Assembly: GCA_000002445.1 (NCBI GenBank)
Contig: CP000070.1
Location: 736,001 to 800,000, forward strand
DNA from: Trypanosoma brucei
Lineage: Eukaryota
Length of the DNA stretch: 64,000 nucleotides
Reading direction: 5' to 3'
Made by a program: the position numbers and the translations under genes. Of the stretch, positions 87 through 32,629 are shown one piece after another. The notes below the pieces were generated by a model, which searched no databases, was not told the origin of the DNA, and saw only the letters and a program-made list of their open reading frames with translations. How positions within the stretch are numbered: the stretch's first letter is position 1; each line of letters starts with the position of its first letter.

Positions 87-662
<576 letters not shown>

Positions 663-995: not shown

Positions 996-1571
<576 letters not shown>

Positions 1572-1904: not shown

Positions 1905-2480
<576 letters not shown>

Positions 2481-2812
2481 ATAGAGTAACTCACAGTCGG
2501 TCTGGTGAATATCCCGCGACCTGGAAATAGTTAGATGCCTATGCGGATCCCTCACTGCATCCCTTACGGGATTGTTGCGAGTGAGCCCGCAAACTGTTTA
2601 CTTCACTCCCTTTTTTTTGTTTTTTTCTTGATTGTATGTGTTGTTGGCACTTTTGTCCACAAATCACATTCACCATTTTCTCAATAATTGTTGTGTGGCT
2701 CGGTTGTATTTATCGACAATGTGTGCCTCCATTTGTGTGAGGTGGTGCGGACTTGCCGTGTGCACACACAATGTGGTTGTTGTGCATGTGCACGTGTCTG
2801 TGCTTCCTTTAG

Positions 2813-3388
<576 letters not shown>

Positions 3389-3721
3389 ATAGAGTAACTC
3401 ACAGTCGGTCTGGTGAATATCCCGCGACCTGGAAATAGTTAGATGCCTATGCGGATCCCTCACTGCATCCCTTACGGGATTGTTGCGAGTGAGCCCGCAA
3501 ACTGTTTACTTCACTCCCTTTTTTTTTGTTTTTTTCTTGATTGTATGTGTTGTTGGCACTTTTGTCCACAAATCACATTCACCATTTTCTCAATAATTGT
3601 TGTGTGGCTCGGTTGTATTTATCGACAATGTGTGCCTCCATTTGTGTGAGGTGGTGCGGACTTGCCGTGTGCACACACAATGTGGTTGTTGTGCATGTGC
3701 ACGTGTCTGTGCTTCCTTTAG

Positions 3722-4297
<576 letters not shown>

Positions 4298-4635
4298 ATA
4301 GAGTAACTCACAGTCGGTCTGGTGAATATCCCGCGACCTGGAAATAGTTAGATGCCTATGCGGATCCCTCACTGCATCCCTTACGGGATTGTTGCGAGTG
4401 AGCCCGCAAACTGTTTACTTCACTCCCTTTTTTTTCTTGTTTTTTCTTGATTGTGTGTGTTGTTGGCACTTTTGTCCACAAATCACATTCACCATTTTCT
4501 CAATAATTGTTGTGTGGCTCGGTTGTATTTATCGACAATGTGTGCCTCCATTTGTGTGAGGTGGTGCGGACTTGCCGTGTGCGGACAAATATATTTTTTA
4601 TTAGCTTTTCCTTTTTTTCTTTTTTTTTTTAGGTC

Positions 4636-6648: not shown

Positions 6649-6881
6649 GGGTGACAGGTTTGGAGGCTTGTCAATGAAATTTGTCGTTAAGGTCTTGAAA
6701 CTGACAGAATGTGGAAGAGAATCGAGATGAATATGTGGACCTTTTCTTTTTTTCTTCTCTTCTGTCTTTCCTTCGTATGCGATGGACTTACATGCAGCAG
6801 TTAAGCGTGTAGCTGTACGTCGACTTTTTTGTTTAACGCCTAACCGCCACCTCGTGTCGGCTGGCGCGGCCGCACCTCTTC

Positions 6882-8252
6882 ATGGCGGGCATCAGGTTTG
6901 CTGCGACAGGAGCCTTCTTCGCCGCTGTGGGCTACTTTTCTGTCGATAGATTTATAAACAGCGCCTCATGGTGGGCGCTGTTGCGCTCTAGTGGAGAGGC
7001 CTCCGCTGAGGATGGTGGCAGTGGCGGATGTATCCGCCGCCGGCTCGGAAGTGCAGGAAGCGTTTGGCAGCGTTTCAACCAGTACTCAACACCCGGTGCT
7101 GCAGGGGTCCAAGTGCTGCGTTTTCTTGACTTTGTGGCGTGTGTCTGCCTCTTGGATGAAGAGGACAGGCAACGTCTCCACAGCCGTCTGTGTGGTGCTC
7201 CAACTGAAGGACGAGAGGACCTTTGTAGCCTCTTCAAACTCGTAGATACGAATGCAAGTGGGACGATTACGTATGATGAGTTTTGTGTGCTCATCACACT
7301 TCTGTCGGCATGCCAAAGACATTTGAAGATAGCGTTTGGTGCTTTTGACGTAACGGAAGAGGATTCCCTCTCGAGGGATGGATTTAGACGCATAATAAAT
7401 ACACTCATGGTCGATCCAACTGTTCAGATCGTTGAGAGGACGGGTCATGAGAGTGATGTGCACTCACATGGAGGTGGGAGACGCGATGGGGGTTTGACCA
7501 GTAGTGAGTTTCTCTCATCAAATCTCGTTAAGCTCTTTTTCGGCGTGGATGAAGATGCACGAATTTCGTTCGACGACTTTTGGACAGTGGTTAGAAGAAT
7601 CCAGTGGATGGTAAGGAGGGTTGAGTTTCAGCTGTATGACACACAAAACACCGGTAGAATAAAACTTCACCAGCTTCAAAAGATATTATTTCCCGACAGG
7701 TACTGCTCAACTCAATGTGAGGAGGGGCATAGCGATGAAGAAAGTCGTTACGTCAGCAGTCGCTTAAACTGTTTAAAAGATAAATTTGTTAGCTGGGACC
7801 TGTACATGAAGGTTTTTGATGTGCTCTGCGAGACGGAGAGTATTGTGCGTGGGATGAATCTCGCCTTAAATGCCAGAGACCCGGAAGGGCGGAATGACCA
7901 TACATCCTGTCTTTGTCATCGTGACGACAGTATGACTCCTATTGTATCGGTACTTGCGGATACGGCAGCAGGGCTCACCACGTCTCACTCAGGTAGGGAT
8001 CGTGAACTTGATTATGTCGAGTTCCACCGAGTGTTGCAGAGCTGCGACCATCTGAAACACTTGACTAAAAGTGATGCGGAGGAGATTGTTGAGATATTTG
8101 ATATTGACGGATCGGGGAAGTTATCGCCCGATGAGTTTGGGAAGATGAGTAGAATGTGTACTTCCTTTTTTATGCGGTCCACGCCCCTTTTCTTGGAACC
8201 CCGGAGAAATACCATTCAGAGGTTCGTTTATTGCATGCAACAGCTCAGGTGA
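6882..8252 (+). CDS. EF-hand Ca2+-binding protein, MICU-like (mitochondrial calcium uptake regulator-like)
   Basis: Two canonical 12-residue EF loops far apart: DTNASGTITYDE (~aa 122-133) and DIDGSGKLSPDE (~aa 405-416). N-terminal hydrophobic/amphipathic presequence MAGIRFAATGAFFAAVGYF. Length 456 aa. This architecture (two canonical and two degenerate EF hands, N-terminal anchor) matches MICU1/2. Confidence 0.5.
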   Translation: MAGIRFAATGAFFAAVGYFSVDRFINSASWWALLRSSGEASAEDGGSGGCIRRRLGSAGSVWQRFNQYSTPGAAGVQVLRFLDFVACVCLLDEEDRQRLHSRLCGAPTEGREDLCSLFKLVDTNASGTITYDEFCVLITLLSACQRHLKIAFGAFDVTEEDSLSRDGFRRIINTLMVDPTVQIVERTGHESDVHSHGGGRRDGGLTSSEFLSSNLVKLFFGVDEDARISFDDFWTVVRRIQWMVRRVEFQLYDTQNTGRIKLHQLQKILFPDRYCSTQCEEGHSDEESRYVSSRLNCLKDKFVSWDLYMKVFDVLCETESIVRGMNLALNARDPEGRNDHTSCLCHRDDSMTPIVSVLADTAAGLTTSHSGRDRELDYVEFHRVLQSCDHLKHLTKSDAEEIVEIFDIDGSGKLSPDEFGKMSRMCTSFFMRSTPLFLEPRRNTIQRFVYCMQQLR

Positions 8253-8688
8253 AGAAAAGTGTTGCATTGCGCACCGTTCTTTCCAATTTTGTTCAACATA
8301 TTTGTTTTTAGGGGTGGTAGAGGGCTTGAACTTCCCTTACCTCATCATCTGGCCTCAGATGTTTGTTTGCGCGAGCCGTTGAATAGTTCACTTTCTCCCT
8401 TTGCTCCTTTGTTAGGGTCTACCTTGCTTGATGGTACAAGTCGACGTCTTCCGCGACTTTGAATGAGTAACTGTACACTTCATGTAATAATTCGTTTGCT
8501 TGTGCGCACTTATTTTCCTTATTTCGCATCAAATCTCATACGTTTTCTCGCTCTTAACTCGTTGAATCCAGTTGCTTGCCCTGTTCAGGACTTTTTTTTT
8601 TTGAGAGTTGAATTACTTGAAAGATTACTTAGCGGCGGTTCGGTTTGAATCAGCTACTGGGTATTTGTTTGTTTCCCTGCAGGCAGTG

Positions 8689-8725
8689 CCCCCCCCCCCC
8701 ACAAAAACAACAACAACAAACAACT
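8689..8725 (+). repeat. C12 homopolymer followed by a (CAA)n/(CA)-rich tract
   Basis: cccccccccccc acaaaaacaacaacaacaaacaac, located ~70 nt upstream of the helicase ATG. Confidence 0.9.
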
Positions 8726-8792
8726 GACGAGGTACCCGCTGTGTGCGCAGGTTCGCGGAAAATAAGAAGGGAAGTGATCACAAGTTTGCGCC

Positions 8793-11267
8793 ATGCCCGT
8801 CTCCCTTACTTCAGTCACCACCGATGGAAGAACCAACACCGTCCCGAAACTTCGTCCGTACCAGCAGGAGCTGTTTGAGAAGGCGATACGTGGAGACTCT
8901 ATTATTTACCTTCCAACTGGTGGGGGTAAGACAGTGGTTGCTGCGGCGATCGCACACTATATGCGACGTAAACACGAGAAACGGATAGTCTTCGTCGTGA
9001 ATCGTGTTCCATTGGTGGCACAACAGGCAAAAGTGCTTGAAAGCGTTTTGGGGAAAGGGTCTCGGGTGGCGACAGTTCGTGGCGGTAAGAAATCCGTAAA
9101 GAGCTGGAGTGTGTTGGTGGATGAAGGATGCGATGGCGTTGTTATCACCGATTCCATATTTCACGAGTGGATTATCGGTTCCCCCAAAGCAATCACGGAG
9201 GACACGTGCCTGGTGGTCATCGACGAAGTTCATAACGCTACTGGTGGCTGTCTAAAAAAAATTTTCGAGTATATACATAGAATATGTCCCCGAGAGCCGC
9301 AAAGGTGTGCCTCCAATGATGGCGTCAGCGAACCAACTCTTCCCCTCCTTCTTGGTCTTACTGCTTCACCCGTTTTGTCCTTCACCAGGTCGGACTCGCT
9401 GAACAAACTCATCGACGTGACGCGCTGTCGCATCGTGAATGTGACGGAGAAGATGGACAATCTGCTTCAAGAAGTGCCTTTACCGTTAACTGTAGGAGTG
9501 GAGTATTACCTCTCGCCTCCCGAAGAAGCATTTCTGTTTTATTTGCAGAGAGCCGCAGTGGCCCTACAGGATAATCTCAAAGTAAAGAAAAATGCACATT
9601 TAAGGGCGGGGTTTGCTTGTCCGGTGGCTTCTGATGGTTACATTAATAGGTGTAATGAGATAAAAGTAAAAGCGTGCAGTGGGACAAGCGGCGAGGTTGA
9701 TAGGTTTGCGTACAGTATTGCTACGTTCTTACTTTGTGTGTCCCAAGCTTTCGTTAAACTAAACGAGGTCTCGCTCGGTAGTGCATACAAAACCGTCATG
9801 GATGATAAATTGTTTAAGTCGTTGCAAGAAAGTCCAGAATCGGCGGAGCTTGTTGTACCGATTCTTGAGGGTCTGATGAAGTTGCTACGGGAAAGCAGGC
9901 ACAAGTATCCGGAAAGAGATCCAGGGCAGGACGATTCCTCAGTGGGTTTTGACCCATTTGAGGTATCTTCAAGGGTCCAGTTTTTATTGCAGTTGCTTAG
10001 TTGGATTGGCAAACATGTGGAAGCTAATCATGTAGAAGTGGCTGGCATCATTTTCTGCGATACTCGTGCTTCCGTGTTCCGTATTACTGAAGCTATTGAG
10101 AAGATTCCCACGCTGAGCTCATTGTATAAGCCCCGAGCGCTCGTAGGGAAGGGGAAAACGCTAGTTGATGGGGAAGAAAAGGGTATGACCGATGCCCAAC
10201 AGAGGGATGTTATAGATGAATTCCGGAAGGGCAATACAAGGCTTTTGGTGGCGACGTCCCTAGCTGAAGAGGGACTAGACATCGCCCAGTGCAACCTTGT
10301 TATTAGATATGACTCTTGTGTTTCACTTCGTAGTTTCGTACAAAGTCGTGGGAGGGCCAGGCGGAGGAATGCACTCTTTATCGTTTTTGAGCATGCCCGT
10401 CGGGAGATTAAAGTTGCGGCTGTGGCGATGAAGGCGGTGCGTCTCCAGGATTTTCTTGTGAACGCTGTCCGTGATGCGATTGAGGTGGGGACTCGGCGGG
10501 CCCCCAGAGTTTGGGAGGAATCTCCGAAGTTTTGGTTACGTCGGTTTGAGCGCCGCCACAATGCACCGATTGAGAGGAAGGAGACGGACTGCCGTACGGA
10601 TTTTGGAAGCCACACGCACCCGTTTATTGTAGAGCTCACTGTTACGATACCAAATAACTCTAGTCCTGAAAAAATTGTGATTCCTAAACCGTACGAGGGG
10701 AAGACCATTTCTGTAAAAGCGTCGGGCGGCCGTGTGAAAGCGCGGCAGTATGCCGAATATCAACTCTGTGAGGAACTAGACAAGAGGGGGATACTCATTG
10801 GTGAGGATGGTGAAAGGGCCCGCAGCATTTCAACGATGAAGATGCTGTCCAACGGAATTTTGGTATGTGAGGAGGGATCCCTCTCTACGTCGGAGCTTCG
10901 GAAGCTTTTTTCTCGGAATCCAACTGCAATAGAAACTTATGATAGGAAGGACTGGGGGCCCCACACTCCCTCTTCTGTCCTGCGGGATTCTCTCCGTCGT
11001 CGTCGTTTGCCTGCGCCAGAAATTCACATCAATCGCTCAGGGGACGAGACTAGAGCTGAAATTTATGTGTATATGCGGAGGGACGAAAAAATTGAGCAAA
11101 GAAGGTTTGCTGCAAGCGGGGTTTGTGCTTTGGAGGAGGCAGCGATGAAGGCGCTAAAACATATGAAAATTCAGCTATTTACTGGCACTGGCCACGTCGA
11201 GACCACGGATGACATTGGTAGCAGGGATTTAGCTTGGGAAAGTGAAACCAGCGAATCCGAGAATTAA
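8793..11267 (+). CDS. DExH-box helicase of the Dicer/RIG-I/FANCM (Hef-like) clade with two C-terminal dsRBD-like regions
   Basis: Motif I LPTGGGKT preceded by LRPYQQELFEKAI (the PYQ/Q-motif typical of Dicer/RIG-I/Hef helicases). Motif II VIDEVHNA (DEVH). Helicase-C LVATSLAEEGLDIAQCNLVIRYD. Motif VI QSRGRARRR (closest to the Dicer QSRGRAR). C-terminal segments GGRVKARQYAEYQLCEEL and ASGVCALEEAAMKALKHM resemble dsRBD helix alpha2 (GxGxSKKxAKxxAAxxALxxL). Confidence 0.8.
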   Translation: MPVSLTSVTTDGRTNTVPKLRPYQQELFEKAIRGDSIIYLPTGGGKTVVAAAIAHYMRRKHEKRIVFVVNRVPLVAQQAKVLESVLGKGSRVATVRGGKKSVKSWSVLVDEGCDGVVITDSIFHEWIIGSPKAITEDTCLVVIDEVHNATGGCLKKIFEYIHRICPREPQRCASNDGVSEPTLPLLLGLTASPVLSFTRSDSLNKLIDVTRCRIVNVTEKMDNLLQEVPLPLTVGVEYYLSPPEEAFLFYLQRAAVALQDNLKVKKNAHLRAGFACPVASDGYINRCNEIKVKACSGTSGEVDRFAYSIATFLLCVSQAFVKLNEVSLGSAYKTVMDDKLFKSLQESPESAELVVPILEGLMKLLRESRHKYPERDPGQDDSSVGFDPFEVSSRVQFLLQLLSWIGKHVEANHVEVAGIIFCDTRASVFRITEAIEKIPTLSSLYKPRALVGKGKTLVDGEEKGMTDAQQRDVIDEFRKGNTRLLVATSLAEEGLDIAQCNLVIRYDSCVSLRSFVQSRGRARRRNALFIVFEHARREIKVAAVAMKAVRLQDFLVNAVRDAIEVGTRRAPRVWEESPKFWLRRFERRHNAPIERKETDCRTDFGSHTHPFIVELTVTIPNNSSPEKIVIPKPYEGKTISVKASGGRVKARQYAEYQLCEELDKRGILIGEDGERARSISTMKMLSNGILVCEEGSLSTSELRKLFSRNPTAIETYDRKDWGPHTPSSVLRDSLRRRRLPAPEIHINRSGDETRAEIYVYMRRDEKIEQRRFAASGVCALEEAAMKALKHMKIQLFTGTGHVETTDDIGSRDLAWESETSESEN

Positions 11268-12549
11268 TTATGTATCCCCTCAGCGAAAAACATTCTGTAT
11301 GAACGGTGGTTGTTCCGATTGTTAGGAATGGGGTTGGTGGGGGGACGTTTCACATGCGTGGCAATCGTCCCTCTTATTATTCCTCCTCGTAAACTCCACT
11401 GCCCATCTGAGGCATTGCCCCAAGAACCATATTTCTGGACGTGGTAAGCGCATGTGAACAAAAGGGACGATATCATCTCCATCAGGTGAGGATATTCTCT
11501 TTTCTACGAATCATGGATATGCGAGGGAGACAATAACGGATAAACTTACCGACGTCACCACTCACTTTAGGAAAATGGCAGTTGCGGAGATGTTAAAGGC
11601 CCAAGCATGTTTTCTACCTTTTCCTTTTAAAAAAAGAACGGAATATGAGAGGGAAAATAAACGGAAAGGGGGTAAGAGCCTCAGTTCAAGGGAGAAGAGA
11701 ATACTAGACCTCTTTTAACACCCTGATGTACAGCATCACCGCCACCGACTTTCAGCCGCAGGTTTTTCCCTTCCCTCACTTGTCGTGGCGAAAATTGTGT
11801 GTGGCTACAATGGAGCAAGGTAACTTGCACCGCATGTTTCTCATTTTGAAAGGATTGTTGGCATTAATATTGCTTTCTCGTTTTGTTTTGTTGTTACAAT
11901 ACAGAGCCTCTGCACCGAGGCGACTTATGAGTGTGTGTTTTACATAAAAATATGTGCATGTCTTCGTCACCCTGCTGCTCCCAGTGAAAGAATGCGTCCT
12001 GTAGGGTAAAACCCTGAAGTAGTCCGTGACTTTGCCACTCTCTTAGATCACAGTTGTTAATTATTAAATTATCTACTGACATGGCTGCTCCTACATGAAG
12101 TAAGGGTAGAGATCAAATAGTTTATAATAAAATACTTCTCGTAAACACTTGCTTGCTTTTTGCGTGTTACAAACCTGTCTTCACCAAGGAAAAAAAGTCA
12201 CTCAATCTTGTTATTCTCATTAGTCTTTCGACACCCCTTCATTTTGAGGAAACAACGAATCATTACGATTTCTTTATTTATATTGTAGACAATTGCTCCC
12301 TCATTCAAGTCCTATGCATGATCTACAATTTTCTCGGATCTCTTCCACATTTCACAGAAGGGTCACGTCACGAAGGAGAACATGTGTATGCATACCGGTT
12401 CACTGCCGCTTTGTCAAATACGTACTGTGTTTTTGTACTAGCACCCAAACTCTTCCCTTCCCTTTATCCTTCTCTCTGCCCCAGTGTCATTTTAAGCAAC
12501 AAAGACTAACCAAACAGGAATATTAATATATCTTACAAACGTTTTCACC

Positions 12550-13122
12550 ATGCGCCGGTCTGTATATCAGCTAAGCAAGGAACTCCCAATCTCTGAGGAC
12601 GAGGTTGCGTGTCTGGTGAAGAAGGTGATGCGTGAATGCCCATCAGCCTTCAATTCCCAATCCTCACGTGCTGTGATCCTCTTTGGAGAGCAACACACAA
12701 AGCTATGGAACCTAACGAAGGATAAGCTAAAGGCGACAGTGAAACCCGATTCCTACAATGAGGCCGCCAAGAAGATTGATGGGTGCTTCGCCCCCGCTGC
12801 CGGTACCATATTGTTTTTCGAGGATAAAAGTGTTGTTGAAGGACTTGTCAAGTCGTACCCCGCATACGCAGAAGGTTTCCCAGTGTGGTCAACTGAATCA
12901 TCAGGTATGGCTCAATTCGCCGTGTGGACAGCACTTGCAGAAAAAGGTATCGGTGCGTCTCTGCAGCACTACACATCACTGATCGGTGAGGCGGTGACGG
13001 CGGAGTGGAAGCTTCCGGCAACATGGGAGATGCATGCACAAATGCCATTTGGAAAGCCACTGGAGAAGTGTGGCGAGAAGACGTACATGCCGGATGAAGA
13101 ACGCTTTAAGGTGTTTAAATAA
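12550..13122 (+). CDS. Small nitroreductase-like protein of the Hbn1/Frm2 type (nitroreductase superfamily), paralog A
   Basis: 190 aa. ECPSAFNSQSSRAVILFGEQHTKLWN matches the yeast Hbn1/Frm2 core (PTAFNSQPNRAVILTGETHKKVWD). LQHYTSLIGEAV ~ LQHYNGYIKAAL. C-terminal GEKTYMPDE ~ GEKTYIKND. Same length class as yeast Frm2/Hbn1 (~193 aa). Confidence 0.8.
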   Translation: MRRSVYQLSKELPISEDEVACLVKKVMRECPSAFNSQSSRAVILFGEQHTKLWNLTKDKLKATVKPDSYNEAAKKIDGCFAPAAGTILFFEDKSVVEGLVKSYPAYAEGFPVWSTESSGMAQFAVWTALAEKGIGASLQHYTSLIGEAVTAEWKLPATWEMHAQMPFGKPLEKCGEKTYMPDEERFKVFK

Positions 13123-13952
13123 AGTTCGTTGATATTTTTACCGTACTTGATCACACACATGTATTCCTCCATGGACTGATCTTATTTACACTCTTGGTGT
13201 TATTCACCCTCCTTTAAGCACCAATTTCTTTGCAATACATGCATATACATGTTGGTTTTGGGGCACCTTTATATTGTTATCCAACTGCTTTTTTTGTTCG
13301 CCACGCTTTTCCACTTCTTACCTTTTACACACTAGGTTAATTTGGGCACCGCGTGAGGTTAATATGACCAAATGTATGTTTCTCATGTTTTCCCTTCGTT
13401 TAGCGAGGCAAATGTATTGAAGAAAGTGTCGTGGTTGGGGTAAGTGGTGTTACACGCACGACGTGTTCGTTACCCACCCTTTCCACCCTCTTCTCATGCT
13501 TCTGCACTTCTTTACTTTTTTGTTCATTCGTTTATATACATATATACATATATATTTACGTGTTCTGGCTTCTACGATTTTTAAAAAACACGTATCGCTA
13601 TAATTATAAGCGTGTACGCACTTATTTTTTTGTTATCGCTCTATATACATGTGGTGCATAATACAAGGTGTCTCATTATCACTAGAGGTTTCTTAGGTAC
13701 CGTACCCCGGTCATGTAGCATGATGTAGAGGGATGAGAGTCGATATGAATATAATAAATGATGCTTGTAAGGATGATTTGACCAACTACCGCTTTCGTAC
13801 ACGTGTGTATTTTTGCATGCTTGTGTTTTATCTGCTTTGTTTATTGTAACCCATTTAAATCATATTTTTTTGTTCACTTCTGTTGTCTTTTTGTCACTGT
13901 TGAATTGTTCCCATTGAGTTAGCTGAATTTCATTGGTTTTTGGAGTTATCAC

Positions 13953-14138
13953 ATGATGTACGTGCTTGTAGCCGTGGCCATGTTGGCAATATTCTTCGCA
14001 GCTTTAGTGCTGTTTTTACGCGGTAAGTTATCTGCTGGATCAGTTGCCACGAGCAACGGTGGAATTGGCAGTGATTCTGGGCTGATGCCCGGTGAGTCAG
14101 TCACTACGAGAGTTCGTCGTGCTCGGAAGGAGGAATAA
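13953..14138 (+). CDS. Small ORF (61 aa) encoding a single-pass TM peptide with a charged C-terminal tail; hypothetical
   Basis: MMYVLVAVAMLAIFFAALVLFLRGKLS...RVRRARKEE. Sits in a 1.66-kb intergenic space with an upstream polyY tract (ttttttgttcacttctgttgtctttttgtcactg) and is conserved identically in the duplicate (26622..26807). There is no independent evidence of expression. Confidence 0.25.
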   Translation: MMYVLVAVAMLAIFFAALVLFLRGKLSAGSVATSNGGIGSDSGLMPGESVTTRVRRARKEE

Positions 14139-14468
14139 CGATTATCATCCAACAGTGAATATGAGCGGTTGGTGGCGCCTCAGGTGACACGGTTTGTTCG
14201 CAAGATTCGTGCCGCCGCGTTATTTGTTTCCGATTGAGCGCATATGCCGCAGTTAGGTAAATGTTCGGTTGGTGTTGCTGTGGATCTACTGATGTGATCT
14301 GTTGTTGTTGTGTTGTTTTTGAAGAACATTTTTTTAAATACCTTATATTTGTTTTTAATTCTCTCTTCCTTTTTTGTTACACTAATGTGGCCGTAAAGCA
14401 TCCTTAATTAATATTTTGGTTGCCATTGTTAGGTGTCTCCGCAGTTATGTTTACTGTTGGTAATGAAA

Positions 14469-14490
14469 CTATTCTTATTATTATTATTAT
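14469..14490 (+). repeat. (TTA)7 microsatellite; (TTA)5 with ttcttatta in the duplicate at ~27133
   Basis: ttattattattattattattattc vs ttcttattattattattattc; this is the only length polymorphism of its kind between the duplicated segments. Confidence 0.9.
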
Positions 14491-14782
14491 TATTATTCTT
14501 TTTCTATCCCTTGGCCTTCACCATTATCTTTTTTTTCTTACTTTTGTGACTTCTATGTTTTCAATGGCTACTCAACCTCCCTCCACAGCAGTGCTGTGAT
14601 CTTATCATTTCTCCTGCAAATCCCTGCCGTACATTGTGGTGCTTTCTATATTCTGTCGGCGGAAGCACTCGTGGTAAAAGAGGGGGTAGGGAAAGAGGGA
14701 AACGTGACGAAAGAAGTGGATAGCGTTGAATAACTTGAGAGGCACAATTGTGGAGAGGTTAGATACGAAAGAGTAGTGGAGG

Positions 14783-15721
14783 GTGGGGATCATGTCAAAC
14801 CCACCTAAGCACTACAGTGTGGAGTCATTGCGGACGGTTGGGCTTCTGCCTGCGCAACTGGCCTTGTCCCGTAAGCCACGTCTTCGCCCACACGTAGGTA
14901 ATCTCAAGGGTCTTGTTTACCCTCTACCGTATTACGCAATGTGGCGTGGTAATCACAACAAATACACATATAACAAAAGCACTGTGTGTCTATGGGGAGA
15001 AGGCGATACCCGTTCCATGTACCATCAACATTATGCTCATGCAAAGTGCCCGACGGACTACGGGCGTGGTGGAAGAGAATTTGAATACCTTACAGTGAAG
15101 CGTGGTAAGATGTTACAGAAACCGCTACCGCGGGTGCAATACGTGGCGGAAGGGTCCAAGCCGGTGTGGCTCTTCAAGTCGTGGCATACGCCTCTCAGCT
15201 CACCAAGCATGTGGGAACGAGAGGTTCAGTACGCCGAGCATACACCAGAGCATATTGGTGCCAAGCGGCCGCTTGCAGTAGTCGCACCACGTACAATGCA
15301 TCGCTACCTGTTTCTTATGCATATGGAAAAGGTGACCATTACTGTATCCCCTCTGTTGTTTGGTTATGGTCACACCATACAGAAAGCTGTGTTGGATTTC
15401 TACCGCCGTGCTATAAGTGCTCGCTCTCCATTCCCAAAGGATAAAGTGTTTCTCTTTTATGCCATTGATCACATTACACCTCGTATTGAAGTGACATGGC
15501 TGGATGGGACGTCATATGTTCCACCTGTGTTGGAGGGTGCAAGTTCGCAAGACCTCATTCAGATGGTGATGGAAGAGGCTTGGTTGGCTGCAGATCGCAT
15601 GGCTGCGGAAGGCCGTGTGCTCAATCCGTTAGCAATTGACGATTATAAGTGGGATCAGTTGGTTGTGTTTAAAAAGGTACGGGATAAGGAAGCGAGCAAG
15701 GGTGGTGGCAGAAAGAAGTAA
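14783..15721 (+). CDS. Conserved hypothetical protein (312 aa), basic C-terminus; paralog A
   Basis: Long ORF with coding-like composition and an identical copy at 27449..28387. Ends in a basic KKVRDKEASKGGGRKK tail. No recognisable domain by eye; it could be an organellar/ribosome-associated protein. Confidence 0.6.
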   Translation: MGIMSNPPKHYSVESLRTVGLLPAQLALSRKPRLRPHVGNLKGLVYPLPYYAMWRGNHNKYTYNKSTVCLWGEGDTRSMYHQHYAHAKCPTDYGRGGREFEYLTVKRGKMLQKPLPRVQYVAEGSKPVWLFKSWHTPLSSPSMWEREVQYAEHTPEHIGAKRPLAVVAPRTMHRYLFLMHMEKVTITVSPLLFGYGHTIQKAVLDFYRRAISARSPFPKDKVFLFYAIDHITPRIEVTWLDGTSYVPPVLEGASSQDLIQMVMEEAWLAADRMAAEGRVLNPLAIDDYKWDQLVVFKKVRDKEASKGGGRKK

Positions 15722-17376
15722 GGGATAGGAATTTGTTTGGGTTAGGGGTGGTGGCACCGTGGCCGATTTTTATTTTCCAGTTGTGGTTGTTGTTTTATGG
15801 TACCTCACTTACCCCTTTCCTTTAATTCACAGCTCTTACCGTAGTGTAACTCCTTGTTTTTGCACTTTACGCCAGGTGTGGATGTTGAGTGTTACATTGG
15901 GTTGGTCATTGCCATGCTGATATATATGTGTGCTTTCATTGAAAGTTCATACGGATACTAATATCTTTTCTTTTCATTTACGTTATCACGATATGACGGT
16001 GGTGTTTGTGCCGTTATTGTATTTTGCATCGTGTATGATCCCTTTTCATTTCTCTCTTTCCTCTTTTTCCTCTATTTCACAACACTACTTTAACCTACCG
16101 ACTGACCGAAGTTTAGTGAAGAGGATTGAAACACGACAGGATTAAGCAAAAGGAAAGAAACAGGAAACAGTGTAAGGTGGAAAGGTAGAGTTGTAGGAGG
16201 GACCAAGAAAACGTGTTTGGGCGAAAGGGAAGTTGGGGATTTCTGCATTAAAGGGGAAGTAATGTTTGGCTTTTCAAATTGATTTGTTGGAATTTTGTTT
16301 TTGTGCAAGGTGTGTTGCCGTGTCACTATGTTTATAATGGAGGCTAATTCTATGGGTGCTTGCCTTGTTTGTGCAATCTTTTCCATTTCGTGTTGTATCT
16401 GATCTTATGAACTTCGTCTGGTTTATCCGCTAATAACGTTGTTAATGTAAATGGCAACCATGCGTCGCCCTTTCGGTTTTAAAAAAAACGAACAACTATA
16501 TTCTTTGCCCTTGGTATTTCCATTCCTCAATTTCTCTTTTCTTTTTGTCGCCTTCTCTAGGTGTAGTAAACGCACCGGACTACGCGAAATATAAGACGAC
16601 GGAGGGAAAGAGGATTACATACACGCTACACGAAGGAAAGGGCTTATCATTATTAATTTTCGTGCATTACTTTATTTATCCCGATTTCTCATTCCCCTCT
16701 TTCGTTAGCACCTCCTCTTCCCCTCCCCTTGAGAGTGAAGGGAAGGGAGGTAACGGGTGATTACCAACTGTTTTCGGTGTGACGTGGCCGATCCACCCGT
16801 GTAAGGAACCGGCTTTCACTTTGAGAGACTCTAACGTTCCCGTGTTGGGTCTAAGGAGGGAGGAAACCGGTAGCGACGGGGTATTTAAGACAACTACTTT
16901 TTTTGCGGTAAAAGTGGGCTGGACGTTAGGAAGAAGACGAAGAGGAACCGTGCGTAAAAAAGGTTGTTGTGAGTGAGGTTCCGCTATAGAGGCTAAATAA
17001 GGGTGAGGAGGGTTGTAGGCCCGAAGGGTAGTTGGGTGCTGTGTCACCTGCAGGGAGGAGGTGCGACTACAATTTCGTCAATAGCATCGCTAGTGTTAGT
17101 TACGTTTAGTGTAAAGGCAGAACTGTTTCTAGGGATTGGACTCCGCTAGAACAACGGAACGTGAAGAGTTGCATTTACACAACTCAGTGAGAATTGAGGG
17201 TTGAGGACCCGACGAGAAACCTACGGAGCCGGGGAAAAGAAATCAGTTGCCACAGAACGTTATTTTCATACCCACCATATACTACAGTTTTCCTTAATAT
17301 ATTATTGACTGTTTTTTTTTTTTTAAAGCTACCCAACGACGTGGGTTTCGACTCCTGATAGATTGCAGCCTCTTGC

Positions 17377-24965: not shown

Positions 24966-25226
24966 ACTGTACCATAAGTTGTTCAGACGATTGGTTACAG
25001 CAAAGGTACGGTACACTATACATTCCTGCACATCAAGGGTCACATCACGAAGGAGAGCATGTGTATGCATACCGGTTCACTGCCGCTTTGTCAAATACGT
25101 ACTGTGTTTTTGTACTAGCACCCAAACTCTTCCCTTCCCTTTATCCTTCTCTCTGCCCCAGTGTCATTTTAAGCAACAAAGACTAACCAAACAGGAATAT
25201 TAATATATCTTACAAACGTTTTCACC

Positions 25227-25799
25227 ATGCGCCGGTCTGTATATCAGCTAAGCAAGGAACTCCCAATCTCTGAGGACGAGGTTGCGTGTCTGGTGAAGAA
25301 GGTGATGCGTGAATGCCCATCAGCCTTCAATTCCCAATCCTCACGTGCTGTGATCCTCTTTGGAGAGCAACACACAAAGCTATGGAACCTAACGAAGGAT
25401 AAGCTAAAGGCGACAGTGAAACCCGATTCCTACAATGAGGCCGCCAAGAAGATTGATGGGTGCTTCGCCCCCGCTGCCGGTACCATATTGTTTTTGGAGG
25501 ATAAAAGTGTTGTTGAAGGACTTGTCAAGTCGTACCCCGCATACGCAGAAGGTTTCCCAGTGTGGTCAACTGAATCATCAGGTATGGCTCAATTCGCCGT
25601 GTGGACAGCACTTGCAGAAAAAGGTATCGGTGCGTCTCTGCAGCACTACACATCACTGATCGGTGAGGCGGTGACGGCGGAGTGGAAGCTTCCGGCAACA
25701 TGGGAGATGCATGCACAAATGCCATTTGGAAAGCCACTGGAGAAGTGTGGCGAGAAGACGTACATGCCGGATGAAGAACGCTTTAAGGTGTTTAAATAA
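25227..25799 (+). CDS. Small nitroreductase-like protein of the Hbn1/Frm2 type, paralog B
   Basis: Identical to paralog A except for one substitution (ILFFEDK -> ILFLEDK; ttc->ttg). Confidence 0.8.
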   Translation: MRRSVYQLSKELPISEDEVACLVKKVMRECPSAFNSQSSRAVILFGEQHTKLWNLTKDKLKATVKPDSYNEAAKKIDGCFAPAAGTILFLEDKSVVEGLVKSYPAYAEGFPVWSTESSGMAQFAVWTALAEKGIGASLQHYTSLIGEAVTAEWKLPATWEMHAQMPFGKPLEKCGEKTYMPDEERFKVFK

Positions 25800-26621
25800 A
25801 GTTCGTTGATATTTTTACCGTACTTGATCACACACATGTATTCCTCCATGGACTGATCTTATTTACACTCTTGGTGTTATTCACCCTCCTTTAAGCACCA
25901 ATTTCTTTGCAATACATGCATATACATGTTGGTTTTGGGGCACCTTTATATTGTTATCCAACTGCTTTTTTTGTTCGCCACGCTTTTCCACTTCTTACCT
26001 TTTACACACTAGGTTAATTTGGGCACCACGTGAGGTTAATATGAACAAATGTATGTTTCTCATGTTTTCCCTTCGTTTAGCGAGGCAAATGTATTGAAGA
26101 AAGTGTCGTGGTTGGGGTAAGTGGTGTTACACGCACGACGTGTTCGTTACCCACCCTTTCCACCCTCTTCTCATGCTTCTGCACTTCTTTACTTTTTTGT
26201 TCATTCGTTTATATACATATATATTTACGTGTTCTGGCTTCTACGATTTTTAAAAAACACGTATCGCTATAATTATAAGCGTGTACGCACTTATTTTTTT
26301 GTTATCGCTCTATATACATGTGGTGCATAATACAAGGTGTCTCATTATCACTAGAGGTTTCTTAGGTACCGTACCCCGGTCATGTAGCATGATGTAGAGG
26401 GATGAGAGTCGATATGAATATAATAAATGATGCTTGTAAGGATGATTTGACCAACTACCGCTTTCGTACACGTGTGTATTTTTGCATGCTTGTGTTTTAT
26501 CTGCTTTGTTTATTGTAACCCATTTAAATCATATTTTTTTGTTCACTTCTGTTGTCTTTTTGTCACTGTTGAATTGTTCCCATTGAGTTAGCTGAATTTC
26601 ATTGGTTTTTGGAGTTATCAC

Positions 26622-26807
26622 ATGATGTACGTGCTTGTAGCCGTGGCCATGTTGGCAATATTCTTCGCAGCTTTAGTGCTGTTTTTACGCGGTAAGTTAT
26701 CTGCTGGATCAGTTGCCACGAGCAACGGTGGAATTGGCAGTGATTCTGGGCTGATGCCCGGTGAGTCAGTCACTACGAGAGTTCGTCGTGCTCGGAAGGA
26801 GGAATAA
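26622..26807 (+). CDS. Small ORF (61 aa) TM peptide, duplicate copy
   Basis: Identical to 13953..14138. Confidence 0.25.
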   Translation: MMYVLVAVAMLAIFFAALVLFLRGKLSAGSVATSNGGIGSDSGLMPGESVTTRVRRARKEE

Positions 26808-27448
26808 CGATTATCATCCAACAGTGAATATGAGCGGTTGGTGGCGCCTCAGGTGACACGGTTTGTTCGCAAGATTCGTGCCGCCGCGTTATTTGTTTCC
26901 GATTGAGCGCATATGCCGCAGTTAGGTAAATGTTCGGTTGGTGTTGCTGTGGATCTACTGATGTGATCTGTTGTTGTTGTGTTGTTTTTGAAGAACATTT
27001 TTTTAAATACCTTATATTTGTTTTTAATTCTCTCTTCCTTTTTTGTTACACTAATGTGGCCGTAAAGCATCCTTAATTAATATTTTGGTTGCCATTGTTA
27101 GGTGTCTCCGCAGTTATGTTTACTGTTGGTAATGAAACTATTCTTCTTATTATTATTATTATTCTTTTTCTATCCCTTGGCCTTCACCATTATCTTTTTT
27201 TTCTTACTTTTGTGACTTCTATGTTTTCAATGGCTACTCAACCTCCCTCCGCAGCAGTGCTGTGATCTTATCATTTCTCCTGCAAATCCCTGCCGTACAT
27301 TGTGGTGCTTTCTATATTCTGTCGGCGGAAGCACTCGTGGTAAAAGAGGGGGTAGGGAAAGAGGGAAACGTGACGAAAGAAGTGGATAGCGTTGAATAAC
27401 TTGAGAGGCACAATTGTGGAGAGGTTAGATACGAAAGAGTAGTGGAGG

Positions 27449-28387
27449 GTGGGGATCATGTCAAACCCACCTAAGCACTACAGTGTGGAGTCATTGCGGA
27501 CGGTTGGGCTTCTGCCTGCGCAACTGGCCTTGTCCCGTAAGCCACGTCTTCGCCCACACGTAGGTAATCTCAAGGGTCTTGTTTACCCTCTACCGTATTA
27601 CGCAATGTGGCGTGGTAATCACAACAAATACACATATAACAAAAGCACTGTGTGTCTATGGGGAGAAGGCGATACCCGTTCCATGTACCATCAACATTAT
27701 GCTCATGCAAAGTGCCCGACGGACTACGGGCGTGGTGGAAGAGAATTTGAATACCTTACAGTGAAGCGTGGTAAGATGTTACAGAAACCGCTACCGCGGG
27801 TGCAATACGTGGCGGAAGGGTCCAAGCCGGTGTGGCTCTTCAAGTCGTGGCATACGCCTCTCAGCTCACCAAGCATGTGGGAACGAGAGGTTCAGTACGC
27901 CGAGCATACACCAGAGCATATTGGTGCCAAGCGGCCGCTTGCAGTAGTCGCACCACGTACAATGCATCGCTACCTGTTTCTTATGCATATGGAAAAGGTG
28001 ACCATTACTGTATCCCCTCTGTTGTTTGGTTATGGTCACACCATACAGAAAGCTGTGTTGGATTTCTACCGCCGTGCTATAAGTGCTCGCTCTCCATTCC
28101 CAAAGGATAAAGTGTTTCTCTTTTATGCCATTGATCACATTACACCTCGTATTGAAGTGACATGGCTGGATGGGACGTCATATGTTCCACCTGTGTTGGA
28201 GGGTGCAAGTTCGCAAGACCTCATTCAGATGGTGATGGAAGAGGCTTGGTTGGCTGCAGATCGCATGGCTGCGGAAGGCCGTGTGCTCAATCCGTTAGCA
28301 ATTGACGATTATAAGTGGGATCAGTTGGTTGTGTTTAAAAAGGTACGGGATAAGGAAGCGAGCAAGGGTGGTGGCAGAAAGAAGTAA
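27449..28387 (+). CDS. Conserved hypothetical protein (312 aa), paralog B
   Basis: Protein identical to 14783..15721. Confidence 0.6.
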   Translation: MGIMSNPPKHYSVESLRTVGLLPAQLALSRKPRLRPHVGNLKGLVYPLPYYAMWRGNHNKYTYNKSTVCLWGEGDTRSMYHQHYAHAKCPTDYGRGGREFEYLTVKRGKMLQKPLPRVQYVAEGSKPVWLFKSWHTPLSSPSMWEREVQYAEHTPEHIGAKRPLAVVAPRTMHRYLFLMHMEKVTITVSPLLFGYGHTIQKAVLDFYRRAISARSPFPKDKVFLFYAIDHITPRIEVTWLDGTSYVPPVLEGASSQDLIQMVMEEAWLAADRMAAEGRVLNPLAIDDYKWDQLVVFKKVRDKEASKGGGRKK

Positions 28388-29162
28388 GGGATAGGAATTT
28401 GTTTGGGTTAGGGGTGGTGGCACCGTGGCCGATTTTTATTTTCCAGTTGTGGTTGTTGTTTTATGGTACCTCACTTACCCCTTTCCTTTAATTCACAGCT
28501 CTTACCGTAGTGTAACTCCTTGTTTTTGCACTTTACGCCAGGTGTGGATGTTGAGTGTTACATTGGGTTGGTCATTGCCATGCTGATATATATGTGTGCT
28601 TTCATTGAAAGTTCATACGGATACTAATATCTTTTCTTTTCATTTACGTTATCACGATATGACGGTGGTGTTTGTGCCGTTATTGTATTTTGCATCGTGT
28701 ATGATCCCTTTTCATTTCTCTCTTTCCTCTTTTTCCTCTATTTCACAACACTACTTTAACCTACCGACTGACCGAAGTTTAGTGAAGAGGATTGAAACAC
28801 GACAGGATTAAGCAAAAGGAAAGAAACAGGAAACAGTGTAAGGTGGAAAGGTAGAGTTGTAGGAGGGACCAAGAAAACGTGTTTGGGCGAAAGGGAAGTT
28901 GGGGATTTCAGGAGGTGAACTCAGGAGCAACATATATATATATCTTTGTTTTTGTGTGCGAGGGTGTTGATCGTTTGGGGAAGCGGGAAGGAGCTGCTAA
29001 GAGTTACTTCTTCGTTTCTTGAGGCAGAATCCTACTCTAGGGTTTGCTATCTTATCTGAGGGGAGGAGGCGACTTCCCGGATAGTGAAGGAGGAAAGAAA
29101 ATTATTGGTTGAAGTTAAGGAGAGTGATTGCATACACAGGGTCAAGTAGGAAACTGTCCTAG

Positions 29163-32548: not shown

Positions 32549-32551
<3 letters not shown>

Positions 32552-32629
<78 letters not shown>

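What the first reader, a model, noticed from the sequence alone, without database searches (positions are those of the whole stretch)
12550..13122. Duplicated Hbn1/Frm2-type mini-nitroreductase genes in a kinetoplastid genome
The 190-aa protein aligns almost motif-for-motif with the yeast Frm2/Hbn1 nitroreductase-like proteins (SAFNSQ...RAVIL, LQHY, GEKTY). This is a family distinct from the larger mitochondrial type-I nitroreductase known to activate nitro-drugs in trypanosomes. Two virtually identical copies (12550-13122 and 25227-25799) suggest dosage amplification. The family is essentially bacterial/fungal, so its presence here could reflect an ancient horizontal acquisition. A second, uncharacterised nitroreductase fold could matter for activation of, or resistance to, nitroheterocyclic drugs, or for quinone and oxidative-stress metabolism.
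Basis: partly seen in the sequence, partly recalled or inferred. Interest (0 to 1): 0.5.

Follow-up and report, generated by a model that had tools for sequence, protein, structure and literature searches.

The report
Duplicated bacterial-type nitroreductase genes in Trypanosoma brucei
The two small genes are real, near-identical copies of a bacterial-type flavin nitroreductase in Trypanosoma brucei (already annotated as Tb927.7.2980 and Tb927.7.3020) that was most likely acquired from bacteria by an early trypanosome, but whose biochemical role has never been tested.

Summary
Two 190-aa ORFs (12550-13122 and 25227-25799, + strand) differ by one residue and match Pfam Nitroreductase (E 5e-17).

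The window is T. brucei TREU927 chromosome 7. The genes are Tb927.7.2980 and Tb927.7.3020, already annotated as "nitroreductase family". They are published as the transcripts most strongly induced (50-fold) in insect-stage procyclic forms.

They belong to the Frm2/CinD subgroup. Solved bacterial enzymes are closer (BT_3392, SMU.260, CinD: 43-49% identity, TM 0.88-0.94) than yeast Frm2 (32%, TM 0.75).

The repeat is a 3.9-kb segment, 99.5% identical, that also carries a conserved 61-aa ORF and the mitoribosomal protein mL53.

Synteny shows copy 2 is the ancestral site, between an NPR2-like gene and mL53. T. vivax, T. melophagium and T. theileri have the gene there. T. cruzi and T. conorhini have an empty site. 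No homologue lies beside mL53 in Leishmaniinae, and none surfaced in the protein searches.

Nearest relatives outside Trypanosoma are Proteobacteria (50-63% identity). Bacterial acquisition in an early trypanosome, with later loss in the T. cruzi clade, is the best reading. My tree does not resolve the donor.

Salivarian proteins have lost the N-terminal dimer-interface helix.

A nitro-drug role is untested and not favoured. The finding is correctly read but ordinary and already annotated.

The parts
12358..16243 (+). Copy 1 of the 3.9-kb duplicated segment. This is the derived insertion between the DEAD/ResIII helicase gene and the kinesin gene.
   Evidence: blastn shows 99.54% identity to 25035-28909. 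The junctions are sharp. T. vivax has nothing between its helicase and kinesin genes.
25035..28909 (+). Copy 2 of the duplicated segment. It sits at the ancestral position, downstream of the NPR2-like gene and upstream of the WD40 gene.
   Evidence: The same order (kinesin, NPR2-like, nitroreductase, mL53, WD40) is found in T. melophagium, T. vivax and T. theileri.
12550..13122 (+). Nitroreductase-family gene copy 1 (Tb927.7.2980, AAZ12362), 190 aa, Frm2/CinD subgroup.
   Evidence: Gene ID and name come from PMC5879877 and PMC9585242.
25227..25799 (+). Nitroreductase-family gene copy 2 (Tb927.7.3020, AAZ12366 / XP_845925), 190 aa, carrying L89 instead of F89.
12450..12484 (+). Polypyrimidine tract followed by AG, a likely trans-splice acceptor about 65 nt upstream of the ATG. 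The same sequence occurs in copy 2 at 25127-25161.
   Evidence: Read directly from the sequence. Its function is inferred from the standard kinetoplastid splice-acceptor pattern. An in-frame stop at 12493 rules out a longer N-terminus.
13953..14138 (+). Conserved 61-aa ORF with one hydrophobic helix, inside the duplicated unit. Copy 2 lies at 26622-26807.
   Evidence: tblastn finds it at the same position between NPR2-like/nitroreductase and mL53 in T. cruzi (3 strains), T. melophagium, T. theileri and T. conorhini.
14792..15721 (+). Mitoribosomal protein mL53 gene (Tb927.7.2990), co-duplicated. Copy 2 lies at 27458-28387 (Tb927.7.3030).
   Evidence: It is 100% identical to P0350. Orthologues occur across kinetoplastids, and a Leishmania donovani cluster member is named mL53. 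PMC4445814 lists Tb927.7.2990 among mitochondrial proteins.
13623..13870 (+). Two UAUUUUUU motifs (13623-13630 and 13863-13870) downstream of the nitroreductase stop codon. Copy 2 has them at 26292-26299 and 26532-26539.
   Evidence: The pattern search found 9 matches in the window against 3.5 expected, 4 of them here. The link to procyclic-stage regulation rests on my own recollection and was not tested.

Best explanation
The window is Trypanosoma brucei TREU927 chromosome 7. The two ORFs are Tb927.7.2980 and Tb927.7.3020.

What the protein is (shown): each gene encodes a 21-kDa protein with the nitroreductase fold, belonging to the Frm2/CinD subgroup of the nitroreductase superfamily.

How it probably works (inferred): it is a homodimeric FMN enzyme working by a ping-pong mechanism. 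NAD(P)H reduces the flavin, and the reduced flavin passes two electrons to a quinone or nitroaromatic acceptor. This is the chemistry I recall for CinD and Frm2; I could not open those papers, and no activity has been measured for this protein. It has no N-terminal extension and no C-terminal SKL-type signal, so it is probably cytosolic.

Where it came from (shown by synteny, inferred as transfer): a bacterium, most likely a proteobacterium, donated the gene to an early Trypanosoma. The gene landed between the NPR2-like gene and the small-ORF/mL53 genes. It survives there in Salivaria and in the T. theileri group, and it was lost from the T. cruzi clade. It has fully adopted host base composition, a host splice-acceptor context and stage-regulated expression.

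Duplication (shown): in the T. brucei lineage a 3.9-kb block (nitroreductase, 61-aa ORF, mL53) was copied to a second site 12.7 kb upstream. Because trypanosome genes are transcribed polycistronically, this probably doubles dosage (inferred).

Likely role (inferred): transcripts rise about 50-fold in procyclic forms, so the job is most likely redox or xenobiotic detoxification in the tsetse-midgut stage, not drug activation in the bloodstream stage.
For: Identity:
- The protein is 99-100% identical to T. brucei proteins AAZ12362/AAZ12366. Both copies are also present in T. b. gambiense, and the sequence is present in T. equiperdum.
- Gene IDs and the name 'nitroreductase' appear in PMC5879877 and PMC9585242.

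Family:
- PF00881 hit at E 5.5e-17.
- PDB sequence hits: 8cqv 9e-61, 2ifa 1.5e-49, CinD 5.5e-47, 1ywq 5.5e-43, Frm2 1.2e-29.
- 2IFA is the structure used to represent the Frm2 subgroup in PMC6017928.
- The AlphaFold model has pLDDT 92.4 and pTM 0.88. Foldseek gives TM 0.94 to BT_3392 and SMU.260, 0.88-0.90 to CinD and 0.75 to Frm2.
- Residues invariant across 40 homologues include R2, R3, N35, Q37, R40, G135, A136, Q139, H140, K177 and R185, consistent with an intact flavin site.

Acquisition:
- A Trypanosoma-specific profile searched against 5.8 billion proteins returned only the T. brucei group, T. congolense, T. vivax and T. melophagium, then directly Proteobacteria.
- The same database does hold T. 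cruzi, T. rangeli, T. conorhini, T. theileri, Leishmania and Leptomonas proteomes.
- Identity to Proteobacteria is 50-63%, against 41-46% to a fungus.
- The syntenic position is shared in T. melophagium, T. vivax and T. theileri.
- T. cruzi (3 strains) and T. conorhini have an empty site with no tblastn trace.
- Leishmaniinae carry mL53 in a different gene context without the nitroreductase.
- GC3 and codon fit equal those of neighbouring genes.

Duplication. T. theileri has an independent tandem pair, 89% identical at the nucleotide level.

Expression: 50-fold up in procyclic versus stumpy forms, and also up in proteomes (PMC5879877).
Against: - No enzymology, flavin content, localisation or knockout data exist for this protein in the literature I could search.
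- The neighbour-joining trees do not resolve where the trypanosome clade attaches. All five trypanosome sequences are monophyletic in only 54% of bootstraps in the small set and 11% in the large set, and deep nodes are weak. The donor lineage and the direction of transfer therefore rest on similarity ranking and distribution.
- Fungi also carry the family, so an old eukaryotic gene with many losses is not formally excluded.
- Salivarian proteins lack the roughly 10-residue N-terminal helix. PMC6017928 describes this helix as one of two conserved dimer-intertwining motifs, so oligomeric state or activity could differ from the bacterial enzymes.
- The duplicated block has three genes, so the nitroreductase need not be the gene under dosage selection.
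Confidence: 0.8

Rival explanations
1. Vertical descent. The gene is an ancient eukaryotic Frm2/Hbn1-type gene, as in fungi, that was retained in some trypanosomes and lost many times in other kinetoplastids and other eukaryotes.
For: Fungi have the family: Frm2 (4urp) matches at E 1e-29 and Phaffia rhodozyma P0135 at 46% identity. Deep nodes of my trees are unresolved, so the topology does not exclude this.
Against: Trypanosome proteins are clearly closer to Proteobacteria (50-63%) than to fungi (41-46%; Frm2 32%). T. melophagium is closer to Brenneria (63%) than to T. brucei (57%). No other kinetoplastid or other eukaryote sequence appeared above the bacterial hits, although their proteomes are in the database. 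The mL53 neighbourhood in Leishmaniinae has no such gene.
Confidence: 0.1
2. The enzyme is a significant second activator of, or resistance factor for, nitroheterocyclic drugs (nifurtimox, fexinidazole) in T. brucei.
For: Family members are reported to reduce nitroaromatics (my recollection for CinD and Frm2). BT_3392 is one of nine known or putative nitroreductase genes deleted together in a B. thetaiotaomicron strain that showed reduced nitroreduction of tolcapone and entacapone (PMC13171619). The predicted flavin-site residues are intact.
Against: Transcripts are about 50-fold lower before the procyclic stage, so the drug-relevant bloodstream form expresses little (PMC5879877). Selection, whole-genome sequencing and genome-scale RNAi work on nifurtimox and fexinidazole resistance converges on the mitochondrial type I NTR, flavokinase and ubiquinone synthesis, and never mentions Tb927.7.2980/3020 (PMC4743696).
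Confidence: 0.1
3. The second copy is an assembly artefact or contamination, and only one gene really exists.
For: The two copies are 99.5% identical, and near-identical repeats are a common source of assembly error.
Against: The two copies have different unique flanks with sharp junctions. They differ by 7 substitutions and 2 indels. Two separate accessions exist in both TREU927 and T. b. gambiense DAL972. The literature treats Tb927.7.2980 and Tb927.7.3020 as two genes. Host-like composition and a splice-acceptor context exclude bacterial contamination.
Confidence: 0.02
4. In salivarian trypanosomes the protein has changed function, for example becoming a monomer, a flavin-binding or regulatory protein, or acquiring a different substrate class, because it lost the N-terminal dimer-interface helix.
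For: T. brucei and T. vivax start at M-(E)-RRS with in-frame stops upstream. T. melophagium, T. theileri and the bacterial homologues keep about 10 more residues. The N-terminal helix is described as a conserved intertwining element of the dimer (PMC6017928). The salivarian branch is longer in the tree.
Against: The rest of the fold is predicted with high confidence and superposes at 1.7-1.8 A on the bacterial enzymes. The conserved residues are all retained. The C-terminal strand-swap segment is present.
Confidence: 0.15

Closest known systems
Bacteroides thetaiotaomicron BT_3392, FMN-dependent nitroreductase (PDB 8CQV)
   Same: Best solved relative: phmmer E 9e-61, 49% identity, Foldseek TM 0.94, rmsd 1.8 A over 189 columns. 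It has the same length class and the same conserved motifs.
   Different: It is a bacterial protein with the N-terminal helix that the T. brucei protein lacks. By identity it is not the closest bacterial lineage; Proteobacteria are closer at 50-63%.
CinD (YtjD) of Lactococcus lactis (PDB 2WQF/4BN6) and SMU.260 of Streptococcus mutans (PDB 2IFA)
   Same: Same Frm2 subgroup, 43-46% identity, TM 0.88-0.94. 2IFA represents the Frm2 subgroup in PMC6017928. [quoted passage not shown]
   Different: These are bacterial genes. The trypanosome gene is trans-spliced, developmentally regulated (procyclic-specific) and N-terminally shortened.
Saccharomyces cerevisiae Frm2 / Hbn1 (PDB 4URP)
   Same: E 1.2e-29 and TM 0.75. 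This is another eukaryotic lineage that carries the family.
   Different: Only 32% identity with rmsd 6.6 A, clearly more distant than the bacterial members. There is no evidence that the trypanosome and fungal genes share a eukaryotic ancestor.
Trypanosomal type I nitroreductase (TbNTR, Tb927.7.7230)
   Same: It is also an FMN nitroreductase-superfamily enzyme of bacterial type in trypanosomes, and it is also on chromosome 7 (the Tb927.7 gene ID is my recollection; the excerpts place the NTR locus on chromosome 7).
   Different: From my own knowledge, TbNTR is larger, mitochondrial and NfsB-like, and is present in T. cruzi and Leishmania. It is the established activator of nifurtimox and fexinidazole (PMC4743696). 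The gene studied here is 190 aa with no presequence, is absent from T. cruzi, and is procyclic-induced. I did not compare the two sequences directly.

Membership tests
Nitroreductase superfamily (Pfam PF00881) | Significant profile match over the whole domain | tested here: met
   E 5.5e-17, 62.9 bits against a gathering score of 23.5, covering residues 2-169 of 190 and profile positions 4-167 of 167, for both copies.
Nitroreductase superfamily (Pfam PF00881) | Alpha+beta nitroreductase fold | tested here: met
   AlphaFold2 model with pLDDT 92.4 and pTM 0.88. The top 50 Foldseek PDB hits are all nitroreductase-fold proteins (nitroreductases, FbiB C-terminal domain, IYD, BluB-like, AlbAB oxidase).
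Nitroreductase superfamily (Pfam PF00881) | N-terminal helix of one chain packing between helices of the partner chain (a dimer-intertwining motif, PMC6017928) | tested here: not met
   The T. brucei and T. vivax proteins begin at the RRS motif. In-frame stops lie 19 and 12 codons upstream. T. melophagium and T. theileri keep the helix. This is a variant feature, not grounds for exclusion from the family.
Nitroreductase superfamily (Pfam PF00881) | Binds FMN as a homodimer and oxidises NAD(P)H | not testable with these tools
   This needs recombinant protein. Only conservation of candidate flavin-site residues could be checked: R2, R3, N35, Q37, R40, G135, A136, Q139, H140, K177 and R185 are invariant in 40 homologues.
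Frm2 subgroup (Frm2/Hbn1/CinD/SMU.260; Akiva et al. 2017 classification as used in PMC6017928) | Closest relatives by sequence and structure are subgroup members, including the representative 2IFA | tested here: met
   All six PDB sequence hits (8cqv, 2ifa, 4bn6, 2wqf, 1ywq, 4urp) form this group, at E 9e-61 to 1e-29. They are also Foldseek ranks 1-10; the next fold hit drops to 15% identity.
Frm2 subgroup (Frm2/Hbn1/CinD/SMU.260; Akiva et al. 2017 classification as used in PMC6017928) | A His near flavin N5 where NfsB has Glu (PMC6017928) | tested here: inconclusive
   H140 in the LQHY motif is invariant in every alignment. That this is the His meant in the paper is my inference from motif position. 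I did not inspect coordinates.
Trypanosomal type I NTR (TbNTR/TcNTR, NfsB-like, mitochondrial) | Larger protein with an N-terminal mitochondrial presequence, and orthologues in T. cruzi and Leishmania | tested here: not met
   The protein is 190 aa and starts directly at the RRS motif. No orthologue is present at the syntenic site in T. cruzi or T. conorhini, and none appeared in the protein searches. A direct sequence comparison with TbNTR was not run.

The most novel reading that the evidence does not exclude
A CinD/Frm2-class flavoenzyme captured from a (possibly insect-gut) proteobacterium by the ancestor of Trypanosoma has become an insect-stage-specific detoxification enzyme. It is under repeated copy-number selection: a dispersed duplication in T. 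brucei and a tandem duplication in T. theileri. It was discarded by the T. cruzi clade. In salivarian trypanosomes it has been remodelled by loss of the dimer-clamping N-terminal helix, giving an enzyme with altered quaternary structure or substrate range that matters for survival in the tsetse midgut.
Probability: 0.2. Interest if true: 0.5.

Novelty: already known. Interest (0 to 1): 0.27.

Why it matters
The genes are already annotated, and the family chemistry is well understood, so the finding does not change the picture of trypanosome biology.

It still marks a functionally untested, highly stage-regulated enzyme. It is among the transcripts most strongly induced when T. brucei enters the insect stage.

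It has a clean evolutionary history that can be dated by synteny:
- gain in an early trypanosome;
- loss in the T. cruzi clade;
- independent duplications in two lineages;
- loss of a conserved dimer-interface helix in Salivaria.

That makes it a tidy case study of bacterial gene domestication in a parasite. It is also a reasonable candidate for redox or xenobiotic defence in the tsetse midgut. Relevance to clinical nitro-drugs is doubtful.

Tried and rejected
Literature:
- Searches for Frm2/Hbn1 plus Trypanosoma, for nitroreductase plus horizontal transfer plus trypanosomatid, for 'nitroreductase family' plus procyclic, and for 8CQV found no functional or evolutionary study of these genes.
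- The primary papers on CinD, the Frm2 structure, the superfamily classification and the RIT-seq screen are not in the held library. Their content is cited only second-hand or from my own knowledge.

Phylogeny:
- Neighbour-joining with bootstrap on 158 and on 34 sequences did not resolve the attachment point of the trypanosome clade or a donor lineage. No maximum-likelihood program was available.
- I could not obtain the Frm2 sequence for the tree, because it was always the sixth PDB hit and only five alignments are printed.

Synteny:
- In Leishmaniinae the mL53 neighbourhood is rearranged on both sides, so it is uninformative about an empty site.
- The T. grayi and T. rangeli contigs stop at or near mL53, so they cannot be scored.

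T. theileri pseudogene reading, rejected: two 100-109-aa called 'Nitroreductase' fragments first looked like pseudogenes. They are simply cut by assembly gaps, with runs of N at L012 6051-6745 and 7167-9361.

Contamination or recent transfer, rejected: GC3 and codon usage match those of neighbouring genes.

NCBIfam gave only sub-threshold FbiB C-terminal-domain hits, which reflect the shared fold and not orthology.
Full report
**1. Observation**

They differ by one residue, F89L, caused by a C/G difference at 12819/25496. Both match Pfam PF00881 (Nitroreductase) at E 5.5e-17, 62.9 bits against a gathering score of 23.5, over essentially the whole domain.

The repeat is larger than the ORF. Segment 12358-16243 matches 25035-28909 at 99.54% identity over 3886 columns. 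The differences are seven substitutions, an 8-nt TA-repeat indel and a 3-nt indel. The junctions are sharp, and I saw no flanking repeats at them.

**2. Where the window comes from and what surrounds the genes**

The protein is 99-100% identical to T. brucei brucei TREU927 AAZ12362 and AAZ12366 (XP_845925, UniProt Q57YB2) on a 2.2-Mb contig. T. b. gambiense DAL972 has two accessions with the same sequence, and T. equiperdum has it too.

All large ORFs lie on the + strand, as expected for a kinetoplastid polycistron. The gene order, from Pfam and the literature, is:

- histone H2A tandem array (909-bp period, 1-4700)
- AAA ATPase
- EF-hand protein
- DEAD/ResIII helicase
- [nitroreductase + 312-aa gene]
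- kinesin
- NPR2-like gene
- [nitroreductase + 312-aa gene]
- WD40 protein

Published gene IDs fit this order. Tb927.7.2980 and Tb927.7.3020 are called 'nitroreductase', and Tb927.7.3010 is NPR2 (PMC5879877). Tb927.7.2980 is listed as 'Nitroreductase family' in PMC9585242.

The co-duplicated 312-aa gene (Tb927.7.2990/3030) is conserved across kinetoplastids at 47-90% identity. A Leishmania donovani member of its cluster is named mitoribosomal protein mL53. PMC4445814 lists Tb927.7.2990 among mitochondrial proteins.

Between the nitroreductase and mL53 lies a 61-aa ORF with one hydrophobic helix (13953-14138). It is conserved at the same position in T. cruzi, T. melophagium, T. theileri and T. 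conorhini. The duplicated unit therefore carries three genes.

**3. Gene structure**

A 33-nt polypyrimidine tract followed by AG (12450-12484) lies about 65 nt upstream of the ATG. This is the usual look of a trans-splice acceptor; that it functions as one is an inference from the sequence. An in-frame stop at 12493 excludes a longer N-terminus. GC3 (0.545) and synonymous-codon fit are indistinguishable from those of the neighbouring genes. The gene is therefore neither contamination nor a recent arrival.

**4. What the protein is**

Sequence search of the PDB finds only one group of structures:

| PDB entry | Protein | E-value |
|---|---|---|
| 8cqv | BT_3392, B. thetaiotaomicron | 9e-61 |
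| 2ifa | SMU.260, S. mutans | 1.5e-49 |
| 4bn6 / 2wqf | CinD, L. lactis | 5.5e-47 |
| 1ywq | B. cereus protein | 5.5e-43 |
| 4urp | Frm2, yeast | 1.2e-29 |

2IFA is the structure used to represent the 'Frm2' subgroup of the nitroreductase superfamily in PMC6017928, which follows the Akiva et al. classification.

An AlphaFold2 model built on 40 homologues is confident, with mean pLDDT 92.4 and pTM 0.88. Foldseek places it as follows:

| Target | TM-score | Identity |
|---|---|---|
| BT_3392 | 0.94 (rmsd 1.8 A) | 49% |
| SMU.260 | 0.92-0.94 | 43% |
| B. cereus protein (1ywq) | 0.92 | 37% |
| CinD | 0.88-0.90 | 45-46% |
| Frm2 | 0.75 | 32% |

The next hits drop to about 15% identity.

However, the protein is a much closer relative of the bacterial CinD/SMU.260/BT_3392 enzymes than of yeast Frm2/Hbn1.

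Residues invariant in 40 homologues include R2, R3, N35, Q37, R40, G135, A136, Q139, H140, K177 and R185. These include the Arg and Lys residues and the LQH(Y) histidine expected for a working flavin site. The role I assign to each residue is inferred from PMC6017928 and was not read from coordinates.

**5. A variant feature**

T. brucei and T. vivax proteins start directly at the RRS motif. T. congolense probably does too: its annotated 34-residue N-terminal extension has no homology, and an internal Met aligns with the T. brucei start. T. melophagium, T. theileri and all bacterial homologues have about 10 more residues (MSxxFLxxIKxRRS). In-frame stops 19 codons (T. brucei) and 12 codons (T. 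vivax) upstream show that this is real at the DNA level.

PMC6017928 describes this N-terminal helix as one of two conserved 'intertwining' motifs that hold the nitroreductase dimer together. Its loss is specific to the salivarian clade. The functional consequences are unknown.

**6. Origin**

- **Distribution.** A profile of the four Trypanosoma sequences was searched against 5.8 billion proteins. It returned the T. brucei group, T. congolense, T. vivax and T. melophagium, and then immediately Proteobacteria: Brenneria, Pectobacterium, Morganella, Proteus, Pasteurellaceae, Pelistega, Luteimonas. No T. cruzi, T. rangeli, T. conorhini, Leishmania or other eukaryote appeared, although those proteomes are in the database.
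- **Similarity.** Pairwise identities are 50-63% to Proteobacteria, 41-46% to the basidiomycete Phaffia and 32% to Frm2. T. melophagium is more similar to Brenneria (63%) than to T. brucei (57%).
- **Tree.** Neighbour-joining trees give a solid salivarian clade (98% bootstrap in the 34-sequence set, 85.5% in the 158-sequence set). Support for all five trypanosome sequences together is weak: 54% in the 34-sequence set and 11% in the 158-sequence set. Deep nodes are unresolved.
- **Synteny.** Synteny settles what the tree cannot. In T. melophagium (L001), T. vivax (L002) and T. theileri (L012) the gene sits in the same slot, in the order kinesin, NPR2-like, nitroreductase, mL53 (then WD40 where the downstream gene was identified). 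That indicates a single insertion before Salivaria and the T. theileri group diverged.
- **Empty sites.** In three T. cruzi strains and in T. conorhini the same slot holds only the small ORF, with no tblastn trace of a nitroreductase.
- **Leishmaniinae.** mL53 lies in a different neighbourhood there (acetyltransferase, CFAP141, mL53, ABC-F) with no nitroreductase.

From general knowledge, Salivaria branch outside the group that contains both T. theileri and T. cruzi. On that basis the simplest history is a gain in an early Trypanosoma followed by a loss in the T. cruzi clade. Transfer from a bacterium, probably a proteobacterium, is the best-supported source. It rests on distribution and similarity, not on a resolved phylogeny.

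**7. Duplication**

The synteny comparison shows that copy 2 (25227-25799) occupies the ancestral site. Copy 1, with the small ORF and mL53, is a derived insertion between the helicase and the kinesin. T. vivax has 1.4 kb and no such genes in that position. T. vivax and T. melophagium each have one copy in gap-free sequence.

T. theileri has at least two tandem nitroreductase paralogues, 89% identical at the nucleotide level with different N-termini. Each is cut off by an assembly gap, not by mutation. The nitroreductase has therefore been duplicated independently in two lineages. This makes selection for dosage of this gene plausible, but it remains an inference. In T. brucei the two copies share the upstream splice region and the downstream sequence, so both should be expressed alike.

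**8. Expression and likely role**

[quoted passage not shown] It adds that the proteins also rise in differentiating and procyclic proteomes.

Two UAUUUUUU motifs lie downstream of each copy. I recall this motif as a procyclic-stage 3'-UTR element, but I did not test that.

The protein has no N-terminal extension and ends in KVFK, so a cytosolic location is my inference.

By analogy with CinD and Frm2, I propose an FMN-dependent NAD(P)H:quinone/nitroaromatic oxidoreductase that protects the insect-stage parasite. [quoted passage not shown] Their activity on 4-nitroquinoline-N-oxide and DCPIP is my recollection; the primary papers were not available.

**9. The drug idea**

Work on nifurtimox and fexinidazole resistance in bloodstream T. 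brucei converges on the mitochondrial type I NTR, flavokinase and ubiquinone biosynthesis. That work covers drug selection, genome sequencing and genome-scale RNAi. It does not mention these genes (PMC4743696). Given the low expression outside procyclic forms, a clinically relevant role in drug activation is unlikely, although it has never been tested directly.

**10. Verdict**

The genes are, however, already annotated as nitroreductase-family genes, and their striking stage regulation is already published.

What this analysis adds:

- a synteny-based history: gain in an early trypanosome, ancestral versus derived copy, loss in the T. cruzi clade, and an independent duplication in T. theileri;
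- the true extent and content of the duplicated unit;
- the closer affinity to bacterial CinD/BT_3392-type enzymes than to yeast Frm2;
- the salivarian loss of the N-terminal helix.

None of this is very surprising to a specialist. The biochemical function remains untested.

Noticed in passing
window 1-4726: Tandem array with a 909-bp period. There are five near-identical units (98-100%) plus a diverged sixth partial unit (67-69%). Five units carry a 177-aa ORF that matches histone H2A (PF16211, PF00125). This is the T. brucei chromosome 7 H2A array.
   Followed up: partly
window 13953-14138 and 26622-26807: A 61-aa ORF (MMYVLVAVAMLAIFFAALVLFLRGK...TTRVRRARKEE) with one hydrophobic helix lies between the nitroreductase and mL53. 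tblastn finds it at the same syntenic position in T. cruzi, T. melophagium, T. theileri and T. conorhini, where the C-terminal 11 residues are identical. No gene is called there in any of those loci, so it is probably a real small gene that annotation has missed.
   Followed up: partly
window 14792-15721 and 27458-28387: The mitoribosomal protein mL53 gene (Tb927.7.2990/3030) is duplicated together with the nitroreductase. The two coding sequences are identical. A duplicated mitoribosomal subunit gene is unusual, and it could be either a passenger or the driver of the duplication.
   Followed up: partly
L012 5722-7164 (T. theileri NBCO01000019.1): There are two tandem nitroreductase paralogues, 89% identical at the nucleotide level. 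Each is truncated by an assembly gap (N runs at 6051-6745 and 7167-9361). They are annotated as 109-aa and 100-aa proteins and could be mistaken for pseudogenes.
   Followed up: yes
window 12819 / 25496: The only coding difference between the copies (F89L) falls in the LFFED motif, at a position that is at least 90% conserved as Phe in homologues. The L variant is in TREU927 copy 2 only. Both T. b. gambiense accessions carry F.
   Followed up: partly
window 13623-13870 and 26292-26539: Each copy has two UAUUUUUU motifs in the sequence downstream of the nitroreductase stop codon. These four make up 4 of the 9 matches in the whole window, against 3.5 expected by chance. They may be related to the procyclic-specific expression.
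   Followed up: no
window 32001-34000: This is the lowest-GC stretch of the window (GC 0.376) and has the strongest GC skew (+0.268). It lies in the roughly 2.9-kb gap between the WD40 gene and the 1196-aa ORF. I did not examine it.
   Followed up: no
P0002 (T. congolense CCD17442): The annotated T. congolense protein has a 34-residue N-terminal extension with no homology to anything in the alignment. An internal Met aligns with the T. brucei start codon, so the annotated start is probably wrong.
   Followed up: no
P0003 (ENA metagenome, 264 aa, 1299-bp contig): The top-scoring non-trypanosome hit is a nitroreductase with an internal duplication of about 64 residues. This may be an assembly artefact or a genuine repeat.
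   Followed up: no
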